A stretch of 64,000 bases of DNA from the NCBI RefSeq assembly GCF_003334815.1, contig NZ_QOWO01000014.1. One strand, 5' to 3'. The position numbers were made by a program. Shown here piece by piece: positions 63,601 to 64,000 of the stretch; the stretch's first letter is position 1, and every line of letters starts with the position of its first letter. Origin of the DNA: Escherichia coli. GTDB lineage: Bacteria; Pseudomonadota; Gammaproteobacteria; Enterobacterales; Enterobacteriaceae.

Positions 63601-64000
63601 ATCTCTGGTCAAGTCCTCTCGTGACTCTGGAACGAGTACAGGACCATACAGTTAGCTTCTGGGGTAATGCCTTGAGGAGACCTATAGGTTTGGTGATTGA
63701 TTGTTATAAATATCATCACCTCTTAAGGTATTCCCTTAGAGTTAATCTTTAATTGTGTCTTTAAGTAAACTATAAGTTAATACTATAATTTAATCTTTAA
63801 TTGTGTCTTTAATTAAACTATAAGTTAACTTTAAGTTAAGCCCTGAGAGATCCCCTCATAATTTCCCCAAAGCGTAACCATGTGTGAATAAATTTTGAGC
63901 TAGTAGGGTTGCAGCCACGAGTAAGTCTTCCCTTGTTATTGTGTAGCCAGAATGCCGCAAAACTTCCATGCCTAAGCGAACTGTTGAGAGTACGTTTCGA

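What the first reader, a model, noticed from the sequence alone, without database searches (positions are those of the whole stretch)
63743..63828. Near-perfect 38-bp tandem repeat just inside the putative downstream element
Two copies of TAATCTTTAATTGTGTCTTTAA(G/T)TAAACTATAAGTTAA, 48 bp apart start-to-start, sit about 230 bp from the tRNA fragment in very AT-rich DNA. With only two copies and no short spacer this is not a CRISPR array. Candidate roles are arm-type recombinase binding sites near an att site, iterated regulator-binding sites, or replication-related repeats.
Basis: seen in the sequence. Interest (0 to 1): 0.4.

Follow-up and report, generated by a model that had tools for sequence, protein, structure and literature searches.

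The report
T7-origin-like repeat in decayed island
The repeat is real and is the AT-rich, phage-T7-replication-origin-like piece of a small, decayed mobile island next to a glycine tRNA gene; intact relatives of this island carry perfect T7-type phage promoters, which suggests the island is switched on, and perhaps copied, by the infecting phage's own enzymes.

Summary
There are two 39-nt copies (63742-63780 and 63790-63828) with 1 mismatch and a 48-bp period, in DNA of 22% GC. Shuffles give repeats of at most 17 nt.

The window is E. coli. The repeat lies inside a small island integrated at tRNA-Gly(CCC) glyU, beside ygeQ. This copy is decayed. IS10 abuts the array at 63843, and a 1.65-kb cargo segment is missing.

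Intact relatives read: tRNA-Gly, integrase, 1-3 perfect T7 promoters (TAATACGACTCACTATAGGGAGA), a near-invariant ~115-nt block, this AT-rich array (2-4 units), an inverted repeat, then cargo genes.

Scanned against the whole T7 and K11 genomes, the array aligns best only to the AT-rich DNA downstream of the origin-associated promoters (phiOL, phi1.1A/B or phi1.05, phiOR). The match is orientation-specific and beats shuffles.

Relatives across Enterobacterales carry other T7-group promoter types (K11, GA2A). They also carry a concatemer-junction-like motif inside the integrase gene, and some encode the anti-T7 gene PD-T7-4/RAZR.

Best reading, inferred and not demonstrated: the array is the AT-rich unwinding and priming part of a phage-RNA-polymerase-dependent origin in a T7-responsive island. 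Arm-type integrase sites and binding sites for the island's own regulator are disfavoured. I found no published description of this module.

The parts
63493..63515 (-). 23-nt direct repeat of the 3' end of tRNA-Gly(CCC) glyU. This is the distal attachment-site core (attR-type) that marks the island boundary next to ygeQ.
   Evidence: Exact match to the 3' end of the annotated tRNA-Gly in L001 and L002. The same 17-23-nt direct repeats delimit islands of 4.4-6.5 kb in other genera.
63516..63613 (-). Distal end of the island, homologous to intact relatives.
   Evidence: Window 63480-63613 matches L001 4216-4349 at 97%.
63614..63636 (.). Junction unique to this strain. It replaces the ~1.65 kb that in relatives carries a third T7-like promoter and two cargo genes (KilA-N-like 187 aa, unknown 157 aa).
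   Evidence: None of 5,426 complete E. coli genomes has this junction contiguous.
63692..63720 (-). Conserved inverted repeat GGTGAT...ATCACC just downstream of the array in the transcription direction.
   Evidence: It folds better than shuffles (z -2.39). Its best match in the whole T7 genome is the inverted repeat downstream of phiOR at T7 ~39316-39352. K11 has a similar inverted repeat after phiOR. It is conserved in the Klebsiella islands.
63735..63842 (-). The whole AT-rich array. In the transcription orientation it reads GGCTTAACTTAAAG...(unit)...(unit)...CTCTAAG.
   Evidence: Homologous arrays with 2-4 units occur in L001-L005, L042, L066 and L075.
63790..63828 (-). Repeat unit on the promoter-proximal side, with core TTAAAGACACAATTAAAGATTAA. 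GTGTC lies on the + strand at 63803-63807.
63742..63780 (-). Repeat unit on the promoter-distal side, with the same core. GTGTC lies on the + strand at 63755-63759.
63834..63842 (.). Inferred IS10 target site AGTTAAGCC. Its reverse complement GGCTTAACT matches 5 of the 6 specified positions of the known IS10 target consensus NGCTNAGCN.
   Evidence: Read from the sequence. Relatives continue ...AAGTTAAGCCCCTGTAGGG at this point. The second copy of the target duplication lies outside the window.
63843..64000 (.). End of IS10 / ISVsa5 (CTGAGAGATCCCCTCATAATTTCCCC...), which runs off the window. It separates the array from the side where relatives have the T7 promoters, integrase and tRNA-Gly.
   Evidence: 100% identical to IS4-like ISVsa5 copies in 1,028 genomes.

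Best explanation
The tandem repeat is the AT-rich component of a cis-acting module copied from, or convergent with, the origin regions of T7-group phages. It belongs to a small (4.4-6.5 kb) island integrated at tRNA-Gly(CCC).

In intact islands the order is: integrase; 1-4 phage single-subunit-RNA-polymerase promoters (T7, K11, GA2A or other specificities); a near-invariant ~115-nt block; this AT-rich region; an inverted repeat; cargo genes.

Proposed mechanism (inferred). When a T7-like phage infects and shuts off the host polymerase, the phage RNA polymerase fires the island's promoters. The transcripts run through the easily melted AT-rich array. As at T7's own origins, they are used by the phage DNA polymerase as primers, with the phage primase acting at the GTGTC/TGGTC sites, so that the island is amplified. 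The same transcripts express the cargo.

In the E. coli lineage the AT-rich segment has been expanded by tandem duplication into 2-4 units of about 48 bp.

The copy in this window is a decayed remnant: the cargo is deleted and IS10 sits at the promoter-side edge of the array. Here the repeat is probably no longer functional.

Shown: the architecture, the promoters, the sequence resemblance and the covariation. Inferred: transcription by phage polymerase, which is very likely given perfect consensus promoters. Further inferred: replication priming, and possibly packaging.
For: 1. Promoters. A perfect 23-nt T7 class III consensus lies upstream of the array on the same strand in every intact E. 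coli relative. There are 1-3 copies against 0 expected by chance.

2. Similarity to T7. Local alignment of the array against the whole T7 genome, both strands, peaks only downstream of phiOL (~405-500) and in the primary-origin AT-rich region after phi1.1A/B (~5923-6010). Scores are 43-48 against a genome mean of 15 (sd 3.4). Dinucleotide shuffles reach the observed score 0 times in 1000 for the L002 and L005 arrays. For the two-unit window array they do so 2 times in 1000 against the phiOL region and 12 in 1000 against the primary-origin region. The reverse complement scores at background.

3. Replication in phage K11. The best sites are downstream of phiOR and of phi1.05, directly after the RNA polymerase gene (z about 10). 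The Klebsiella island's AT-rich region scores highest (49, z about 11) on the T7 primary origin, with shared words such as AAGACCCTTAAG.

4. Published T7 origin anatomy. T7 replication starts at phi1.1A/phi1.1B. Secondary origins include phiOR. [quoted passage not shown]

5. Primase sites. Every E. coli unit keeps GAC(AC/CA/GC) on the transcript-sense strand, which is the T7 primase site GTGTC/TGGTC on the template strand. This is the same polarity as GACCC in the T7 primary origin. The identity of the primase recognition pentamers is from my own knowledge.

6. Covariation. The array tracks promoter type, not the island's regulator.

7. Breadth. In 20 of 22 metagenome contigs that hold the invariant block, phage promoters lie 70-235 nt upstream, and the AT-rich stretch is present wherever the sequence is readable. 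In 13 of 16 integrase relatives from 12 genera, phage-type promoters lie downstream of the integrase gene.

8. Biological link to T7. Some islands encode PD-T7-4/RAZR (E 8e-99), an experimentally validated anti-T7/T3 system that 'often overlaps an integrase gene' (PMC9519451, PMC13017515).

9. A further phage-like signal. A concatemer-junction-like motif lies in the integrase ORF, exact over 20 nt to T7 in several islands.
Against: - There is no experimental evidence of transcription or replication.
- The array starts about 230-250 nt downstream of the nearest promoter, whereas in T7 the AT-rich region directly follows phi1.1B.
- T7's AT-rich regions are among the AT-richest parts of that genome. 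Composition therefore helps the match, although the shuffle and reverse-strand controls argue for sequence specificity.
- One lineage (L077, L081, L082) has an AT-rich region with no GAC primase-type site.
- Islands with GA2A-type promoters lack a comparable AT-rich stretch, so the module is not universal in the family.
- The T7 primary-origin AT-rich region also encodes the R1.1 RNase III site (own knowledge), so homology to it does not by itself tell a DNA role from an RNA role.
- In this window the promoters cannot be seen, because they would lie beyond IS10 and outside the window.
Confidence: 0.5

Rival explanations
1. RNA-level role. The AT-rich region and its flanking hairpins form a T7-style 5' leader or processing signal for the phage-polymerase transcript. 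An example would be RNase III sites like T7 R1.1, which overlaps the primary-origin AT-rich DNA. Such a signal would stabilise or mature the cargo mRNA. The tandem units would then be duplicated leader sequence.
For: The array lies between the promoters and the cargo genes, as T7 R1.1 lies between phi1.1B and gene 1.1. The strongest homology is to exactly that T7 segment. The post-array segment folds into two hairpins better than shuffles (z -2.39).
Against: The array itself shows no significant RNA structure in either orientation (z -1.08, -0.46, +0.08). There is no Rfam hit. Copy number varies from 2 to 4, and whole-unit insertions and deletions are tolerated. The array is equally similar to the phiOL- and phiOR-downstream regions, which I do not know to be RNase III sites (own knowledge).
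Confidence: 0.17
2. Protein-binding iterons. The 48-bp units are binding sites for a DNA-binding protein. Candidates are a phage protein (for example the small terminase subunit, making the array a decoy or packaging signal), a host nucleoid protein (H-NS, IHF or Fis silencing the island), or an island regulator.
For: The units are regular, with a conserved core. The islands encode DNA-binding proteins of KilA-N-like, Rha and Ant-like types. The CTTAAAGAC words also resemble the CCTAAAG(AC) short repeats near the T7 ends. The concatemer-junction-like motif elsewhere in the island hints at packaging mimicry.
Against: The array does not co-vary with the island regulator. No similarity was found to the T7 or K11 regions next to the terminal repeat where PacB/PacC lie (PMC9860248). 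The Klebsiella and Rouxiella versions are AT-rich but not iterated, so iteration is not the conserved property.
Confidence: 0.15
3. No function in this genome. The repeat is a neutral slippage or unequal-crossover duplication of AT-rich DNA in a dead island remnant.
For: The window copy has lost its cargo and is interrupted by IS10. Unit number varies among strains.
Against: The unit core is conserved across many independent E. coli lineages and metagenomes, and the AT-rich region is conserved across genera in a fixed position and orientation. This rival concerns present-day activity in this strain and is compatible with the best explanation for the family.
Confidence: 0.13
4. Arm-type binding sites for the island's tyrosine integrase near the att site.
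For: In this window the array lies about 230 bp from the att core fragment, in an integrase-bearing element.
Against: That proximity results from a 1.65-kb deletion. In intact islands the array is about 1.9 kb and about 2.25 kb from the two att cores. All copies are at one locus with none on the other arm. The array is absent from islands whose integrases are 83% identical.
Confidence: 0.03

Closest known systems
Replication origins of phage T7: primary (phi1.1A/phi1.1B plus AT-rich region) and secondary (phiOL, phiOR)
   Same: One or more phage-RNA-polymerase promoters are followed, on the same strand, by an AT-rich stretch with the same word content (CTTAAAGAC, TTAGAGATTTAAAT, AAGACCCTTAAG) and a primase-type site in the same polarity. 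The promoters are in tandem, as phi1.1A/B are. An inverted repeat resembles the one after phiOR.
   Different: The module lies in a bacterial chromosomal island, not a phage. A conserved ~230-nt spacer, including a near-invariant 115-nt block, separates promoter from AT-rich DNA. In E. coli the AT-rich part is expanded into 2-4 tandem 48-bp units. Origin activity is untested.
Phage satellites and phage-inducible chromosomal islands (P4, PICI, PLE, PICMI)
   Same: Small size, tRNA or other site-specific integration, an integrase, activation by helper-specific signals, and frequent carriage of anti-phage genes.
   Different: I detected no replication initiator, capsid-remodelling or packaging genes. 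The presumed helper or target is a strictly virulent T7-group phage. Activation would work through the phage's own RNA-polymerase promoters rather than through de-repression or transcription activators.
Engineered T7 transducing plasmids (T7 origin plus concatemer junction; Chung and Hinkle 1990, cited in PMC9860248)
   Same: The islands combine phage promoters, origin-like AT-rich DNA and a concatemer-junction-like motif. That motif is an exact 20-mer of T7 in several islands.
   Different: The junction-like motif is only about 20 nt long and is embedded in the integrase ORF. No terminal repeat or PacB-like sequence was found. Packaging is entirely hypothetical.
PD-T7-4 / RAZR integrase-associated defence locus (PMC9519451, PMC13017515)
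   Same: Some islands of this family, such as K. pneumoniae ATCC 13883, encode a full-length RAZR homologue directly after the integrase. The integrase association is as published.
   Different: The window's island type (L001, L002) has no RAZR gene. In my term searches of the two papers, 'T7 promoter' did not occur in PMC9519451 and occurred twice in PMC13017515, and I saw no description of the phage promoters or the AT-rich module.
Plasmid or PICI-type iteron origins
   Same: Direct repeats in AT-rich DNA.
   Different: There is no cognate Rep or initiator gene. The period is 47-49 bp rather than about 20-22 bp. The closest sequence relatives are phage T7-type origins.

Membership tests
T7-group phage-type origin (promoter-dependent) | A phage single-subunit RNA-polymerase promoter upstream, reading into the region | tested here: met
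   Met in all intact E. coli relatives, with a perfect 23-mer on the same strand, and in 20 of 22 metagenome contigs. It cannot be seen in the window itself, where IS10 and the window end intervene.
T7-group phage-type origin (promoter-dependent) | An AT-rich region downstream of the promoter with sequence resemblance to bona fide phage origins | tested here: met
   GC is 22%. The best genome-wide matches are only at the phiOL, phi1.1 and phiOR regions of T7 and K11, with shuffle and strand controls. Caveat: a 230-250-nt spacer separates it from the promoter.
T7-group phage-type origin (promoter-dependent) | A phage primase recognition site (GGGTC, TGGTC or GTGTC) on the template strand within the AT-rich region | tested here: inconclusive
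   Present in every E. coli unit and in most Klebsiella-type regions. Absent in one lineage (L077, L081, L082). A 5-mer is weak evidence.
T7-group phage-type origin (promoter-dependent) | Phage-dependent initiation of DNA synthesis | not testable with these tools
   This needs infection or in vitro replication assays.
Arm-type integrase binding sites | Located within roughly 200 bp of the att core, on one or both arms of attP | tested here: not met
   The array is about 1.9 kb and about 2.25 kb from the cores in intact islands, at a single locus.
Iteron origin (plasmid or PICI type) | A cognate initiator (Rep or primase) gene in the element | tested here: not met
   No such family was found among the island proteins searched in PHROGs, Pfam, NCBIfam and PADLOC.
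CRISPR array | Repeats of 24-48 bp separated by unique spacers of similar length, usually with cas genes | tested here: not met
   The gap between copies is 9 bp, there are 2 copies, and no spacer structure is present.
Phage satellite (PICI, P4, PLE or PICMI) | An integrase plus helper-induced excision, replication and packaging functions | tested here: inconclusive
   An integrase and att repeats are present. Helper-type promoters, origin-like DNA and a concatemer-junction-like motif are present. No packaging or capsid genes and no PacB-like DNA were found.
Known RNA family (Rfam) | A covariance-model match | tested here: not met
   No hit at E up to 5 in the window region. In relatives only the tRNA matched, apart from one unrelated sub-threshold hit.
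   No ORF spans the array. Relatives differ by whole 47-49-bp units.

The most novel reading that the evidence does not exclude
A previously undescribed family of miniature islands (4.4-6.5 kb) integrated at tRNA-Gly(CCC) across Enterobacterales parasitises or defends against strictly virulent T7-group phages by mimicking three phage cis-signals.

The first signal is an array of phage RNA-polymerase promoters. Several specificities can occur in one island; for example a single Klebsiella island carries both K11-type and T7-type promoters. The second is a T7-type AT-rich origin, which is the repeat found here. The third is the concatemer-junction pause signal, hidden inside the integrase gene.

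After host shut-off the island would be transcribed, replicated and possibly packaged by the phage's own enzymes. That would make it the first satellite-like element of T7-like phages, and a natural analogue of the pET and T7-transducing-plasmid principles.
Probability: 0.35. Interest if true: 0.85.

Novelty: new variant of a known kind. Interest (0 to 1): 0.68.

Why it matters
T7-like phages shut off host transcription and degrade host DNA within minutes. How a chromosomal element could still respond has been unclear.

An island that carries the phage's own promoters and an origin-like sequence would be expressed and amplified exactly when, and only when, a cognate phage polymerase appears. 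It would also be immune to host-polymerase shut-off.

If this is confirmed, three things follow:
- It would reveal a new infection-sensing logic, with promoter specificity serving as a phage 'barcode' and several barcodes possible per island.
- It would put the validated anti-T7 gene RAZR/PD-T7-4 into a mobile-element context.
- It would point to a pool of uncharacterised cargo genes likely to act on T7-group phages, which is relevant to phage therapy against E. coli and Klebsiella.

For this particular window the practical message is more modest. The repeat marks a decayed copy of such an island.

Tried and rejected
- CRISPR: rejected. There are two copies with a 9-bp gap.
- Coding sequence: rejected. 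No ORF spans the array, and relatives differ by whole-unit insertions and deletions.
- Sigma-70 promoter or intrinsic terminator in the array: one weak promoter-like match against 1.6 expected in shuffles, and no terminator.
- Known RNA families: none.
- Structured RNA from the array: z-scores near 0.
- Homology of the non-coding region to phages by BLAST: only the promoters hit. The origin resemblance needed a Smith-Waterman scan without low-complexity masking.
- Mimicry of T7 or K11 terminal repeats or PacB by the non-coding segments: none found. The only hit was the 20-nt junction motif inside the integrase gene.
- Binding sites for the island's own regulator: disfavoured by covariation.
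- Arm-type sites: disfavoured by distance.
- Laboratory-vector contamination as the source of the T7 promoter: rejected. The promoter sits in a fixed chromosomal context in 91 of 5,426 complete E. coli genomes from diverse hosts, including old NCTC strains, and in metagenomes.
- 'Promoters always match phages of the host genus': only partly true. The Proteus-island 23-mer was found exactly only in vibriophage N4.
- Codon alignment of the integrase motif with MAFFT mis-registered the repetitive SVSLSVS peptide. I redid it anchored on the nucleotide motif.
- Literature: nine full-text searches found no description of T7-promoter-bearing islands or of satellites of T7-like phages. The library is incomplete, so prior description cannot be excluded.
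Full report
**1. The observation**

The sequence at 63742-63828 contains two 39-nt copies of TTAATCTTTAATTGTGTCTTTAA(G/T)TAAACTATAAGTTAA, 48 bp apart, with one mismatch. Tandem Repeats Finder also sees 11-13-bp sub-periodicity.

In 300 dinucleotide-preserving shuffles the longest direct repeat with at most one mismatch never exceeded 17 nt, against 39 observed. The 23-nt core occurs nowhere else in the 64-kb window. GC falls to 22% over the array.

**2. Where it sits**

The window is E. coli. The ORFs at 61727-62497 and 62543-63379 correspond to ygeQ, a glycoside hydrolase family 15 gene at the end of the ETT2 region.

Positions 63493-63515 (minus strand) are an exact copy of the last 23 nt of tRNA-Gly(CCC) glyU.

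From 63843 to the end of the window the sequence is the terminus of IS10/ISVsa5, which is present in 1,028 genomes. It is inserted at AGTTAAGCC, a near-consensus IS10 target. The consensus NGCTNAGCN is from my own knowledge.

The repeat-bearing segment 63637-63839 is rare. It occurs in 59 of 5,426 complete E. coli genomes.

**3. Intact relatives**

I examined L001 (strain D72) and L002 (strain 30COLEC). On the strand of the tRNA the order is:
- tRNA-Gly
- a 542-aa tyrosine integrase
- about 1.08 kb of unannotated DNA
- a 187-aa gene (weak KilA-N hit; phrog_129, annotated as a transcriptional regulator)
- a 157-aa gene with no family match
- the 23-nt tRNA direct repeat
- ygeQ

Genomes without the element have the two flanks adjacent, so it is a discrete 4.4-kb insertion.

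The window copy lacks the 1.65 kb that holds the two cargo genes. Window 63613 corresponds to L001 4349, and window 63637 to L001 6001. No complete genome shares this junction.

The window therefore holds a decayed island. The cargo is deleted, and IS10 sits between the array and the side that in relatives holds the promoters, the integrase and the tRNA.

**4. The unexpected context**

Read in the direction of the integrase, the unannotated DNA of the relatives begins with 1-3 tandem units of about 120 bp. Each unit contains TAATACGACTCACTATAGGGAGA, the exact 23-nt class III consensus of phage T7 promoters.

I built a position weight matrix from T7's own 17 annotated promoters. These sites receive the maximum score, 39.2. 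A weaker T7-like site scoring 24.7 lies upstream of the first cargo gene.

After the promoters come:
- a block of about 115 nt, conserved across genera (TAACCGTAACTTATCGCATCCTTTCAGGGGCGGGATGACC...GGTCAGTCGATAAGTGAATAGCAA)
- CAGGGGCTTAAC followed by the AT-rich array
- an inverted repeat GGTGAT...ATCACC

The module is present in 91 of 5,426 E. coli genomes, always on the chromosome.

**5. Anatomy of the array**

In the transcription orientation, which is the window's minus strand, each unit has the core [A/C]TTAAAGAC(AC|C|GC)AATTA(A/G)AGATTAAC.

Copy number varies:
- 2 units in the window and in L042
- 3 units in L001-L004 and L075
- 4 units in L005 and L066

The period is 47-49 bp. The array occurs at a single place per island.

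**6. What the array resembles**

BLAST against 50,697 phage records found only the promoters. I therefore ran a Smith-Waterman scan of the arrays against every 150-nt window of T7 on both strands.

*T7.* The scan peaks exclusively in two places: downstream of phiOL (~405-500), and in the AT-rich region after phi1.1A/phi1.1B (~5923-6010). Scores are 43-48 for the L002 and L005 arrays and 32-34 for the shorter window array. The genome mean is about 15 with sd about 3.

Dinucleotide shuffles reach the observed score 0 times in 1000 for L002 and L005. For the window array they do so 2 times in 1000 against the phiOL region and 12 in 1000 against the primary-origin region. The reverse complement scores at background. 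This controls for AT-richness.

*K11.* The E. coli arrays again peak only downstream of phiOR and of phi1.05, directly after the RNA polymerase gene. Scores are 44-47 against a mean of 13-14, sd 3.3.

*Klebsiella island.* Its AT-rich region scores 49 on the T7 primary origin. It shares words such as AAGACCCTTAAG, TTAGAG(A/T)TTTAAAT and AAAGA(A)TTACT.

*Inverted repeat.* Its best match in all of T7 is the inverted repeat downstream of phiOR, with at most 2 of 1000 shuffles reaching the score. K11 shows the same order after phiOR: CTTAAAG-rich DNA and then GGTAGTGATGATAATATCACC.

*Published origin anatomy.* According to PMC8373140, T7 replication starts at phi1.1A/phi1.1B. [quoted passage not shown] That the primary origin also contains an AT-rich region with a gene 4 primase site is from my own knowledge (Saito et al. 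1980; Fuller and Richardson 1985).

*Primase sites.* Each E. coli unit keeps GACAC, GACCA or GACGC on the sense strand. These correspond to GTGTC, TGGTC or GCGTC on the template strand, the same polarity as GACCC in the T7 origin. One lineage lacks such a site.

**7. Covariation**

L002 and L005 share the T7 promoters and the array, but their downstream regulators are unrelated (KilA-N-like versus Rha).

L005 and L006 share the Rha regulator at 76% identity. L006 nevertheless has neither T7 promoters nor the array. It carries ACTAAACTATCACTATAGGG-type promoters instead.

That promoter type recurs in many IMG/VR contigs of 39-40 kb, up to twice per fetched stretch. It belongs to Escherichia phages GA2A and ST31.

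Within E. coli, therefore, the array tracks the phage-promoter type and not the island's regulator.

**8. The family**

*Integrase relatives.* They occur in 16 species representatives from 12 genera, and wherever the tRNA is visible the island sits at tRNA-Gly(CCC). Direct repeats of 17-23 nt delimit islands of 5.5-6.5 kb. Thirteen of the 16 have 1-4 T7-group promoter-like 23-mers 60-1300 bp downstream of the integrase on the same strand.

*Klebsiella.* K. pneumoniae ATCC 13883 carries AATTAGGGCACACTATAGGGAGA, which is the exact sequence of K11 phi9, phi10 and phi13. It also carries a T7 promoter and a third type.

*Metagenomes.* A scan with the invariant block returned 22 contigs. Twenty have phage promoters 70-235 nt upstream, with specificities including T7, K11 and AATTAGGTAGCAC. 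The AT-rich region is present wherever the sequence is readable.

*Limits.* Host matching is not perfect. The Proteus-island promoter was found exactly only in vibriophage N4.

*Other genera.* The Klebsiella and Rouxiella AT-rich regions are homologous but not tandemly iterated. The 48-bp iteration is therefore an E. coli-lineage expansion of an older AT-rich element.

**9. Link to phage biology**

The gene directly after the integrase in the Klebsiella island is a full-length match to PD-T7-4 (E 8e-99). In E. coli L006 the gene at the same position is annotated as DUF4145-domain-containing, the domain family of PD-T7-4/RAZR.

PD-T7-4 was selected for T7 resistance and 'often overlaps an integrase gene' (PMC9519451). 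It is now called RAZR, an abortive-infection RNase triggered by T7 and T3 portal proteins (PMC13017515).

In my term searches of the two papers, 'T7 promoter' did not occur in PMC9519451 and occurred twice in PMC13017515. I saw no description of the promoters or of the AT-rich module.

The remaining cargo is mostly uncharacterised.

**10. A further phage-like signal**

*The match.* Comparing phage genome ends with whole islands gave an exact 20-mer, CTCTGTGTCCCTATCTGTTA. This is the last 12 nt of the T7 terminal repeat plus ATCTGTTA. In K11 this position is annotated as the concatemeric junction. The 20-mer is present in E. coli L005 and Klebsiella L049, inside the integrase ORF and in the sense orientation.

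*Conservation.* Nearly all integrase homologues keep YTATCTGT at this position, within otherwise diverged flanking sequence.

*Codon test.* The motif encodes S-x-S-L-S-V. Its Leu codon is CTA or TTA and its Ser codon is TCT in 14 of 14 integrases that are 64-97% identical. Only 1 of 43 other conserved-Leu columns and 1 of 21 conserved-Ser columns are so restricted.

*In the phages.* TATCTGT occurs exactly once in each of T7, K11 and GA2A, and always at the junction. Islands with T7 or K11 promoters have ATCTGTTA, while islands with GA2A promoters have ATCTGTAT, as GA2A does. This covariation is confounded by shared ancestry of the integrase clades.

*Background.* The T7 concatemer junction is a class II signal for T7 RNA polymerase (abstract of bioRxiv 10.64898/2026.02.12.705533, listed). 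Its role in concatemer maturation is from my own knowledge (Zhang and Studier 2004). Plasmids carrying a T7 origin plus the junction are packaged by T7 (Chung and Hinkle 1990, cited in PMC9860248).

*What is missing.* I found no terminal-repeat or PacB-like sequence.

**11. Interpretation**

The best-supported reading is this. The repeat is the AT-rich unwinding and priming part of a phage-RNA-polymerase-dependent, T7-type origin, within an island that phage polymerase transcribes upon infection.

Transcription by phage polymerase is strongly implied by the perfect consensus promoters and their host-appropriate specificities. Replication priming is an inference from architecture and sequence resemblance. 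Packaging is speculative.

The rivals are:
- an RNA-level leader or RNase III-type role
- protein-binding iterons or a decoy
- a neutral duplication in a dead copy
- arm-type integrase sites, which the anatomy largely excludes

In this window the element is decayed, so present-day function is doubtful.

**12. Novelty**

Nine full-text searches found no description of chromosomal islands with T7-group promoters, or of satellites of T7-like phages. The library is incomplete, so I cannot exclude prior description.

I classify the feature as a new variant of known kinds, namely the T7-type origin and the phage-inducible island or satellite. There is a substantial chance that the family is a new class of T7-exploiting element.

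Noticed in passing
L005 ~8448-8467 (island pos 629-648) and L049 5277-5296; homologous position in L002 ~7815-7834 (inside the integrase ORF; outside the window): A concatemer-junction-like motif lies inside the integrase gene. Several islands carry the exact T7 20-mer CTCTGTGTCCCTATCTGTTA. YTATCTGT is conserved in nearly all homologues with restricted synonymous codons, and its 3' variant tracks promoter type (ATCTGTTA versus ATCTGTAT).
   Followed up: partly
L049 6397-7029; L006 8335-8994: The gene directly after, and overlapping, the integrase in some islands is the anti-T7 defence gene PD-T7-4/RAZR (E 8e-99 for L049). It lies upstream of the phage promoters, so it is probably expressed from a host promoter, whereas the downstream cargo would be driven by the phage polymerase.
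   Followed up: partly
L002 6375-6260 (minus strand); L049 ~7245-7365: A non-coding block of about 115 nt between the promoters and the AT-rich region is nearly invariant from E. coli to Klebsiella, Rouxiella and strain RIT691. It has no Rfam match and no similarity to T7 or K11. Its function is unknown.
   Followed up: partly
L049 7035-7151 and 7589-7611; L044 8254-8310: Single islands carry promoters of several specificities side by side. L049 has two K11-type promoters, one T7 and one AATTAGGTAGCAC type. L044 has TAATACACCTCACTATAGAGG 28 bp before CTTAACTATCACTATAGGGG. This suggests responsiveness to several phages.
   Followed up: partly
L005 6620-6250 (minus strand); L042 ~4050-4200; L001 6540-6670; L002 5916-5885: The non-coding DNA around the module is full of short tandem repeat arrays that vary between strains: TAGGGTCTCTCTC, CTCAGTTTTGAGC..., CACCAGCACCA, GGTCATCGCCTAT, GACCACACAG and TCAATACGA x3. 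They are reminiscent of the short-repeat arrays next to the T7 terminal repeats. Their function is unknown.
   Followed up: no
window 63692-63741: Two hairpins lie directly after the array. One is the inverted repeat GGTGAT...ATCACC. The other is CTCTTAAGG/CCTTAGAG. The arms of the inverted repeat are conserved although its loop length varies: 29 nt in E. coli and 19 nt in L067. It resembles the inverted repeats downstream of phiOR in T7 and K11.
   Followed up: partly
window 61727-63379: The GH15 gene ygeQ is a single 536-aa ORF in strain 30COLEC. In the window it is split into two ORFs of 256 and 278 aa, so it looks like a pseudogene here.
   Followed up: no
L001 4143-4215 versus window 63484/63480: Relatives have about 74 extra bp between ygeQ and the tRNA-fragment repeat compared with the window. 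This is an insertion or deletion at the island boundary.
   Followed up: no
L003 1295 onward; L005 4064-5044; L006 3688-6303; window 63843 onward: Different strains have different insertion sequences (IS911, IS5/ISEc68, IS66/ISCro1, IS10) inside this small island. Two of them, IS911 and IS10, sit right at the edges of the AT-rich array. The region seems to be an IS target or the islands are decaying.
   Followed up: no
L005 1-1644: A second integrase gene with its own cargo (a DUF6971 protein and a hypothetical protein) lies in tandem beyond the first island at glyU. This suggests tandem accretion of islands at this tRNA.
   Followed up: no
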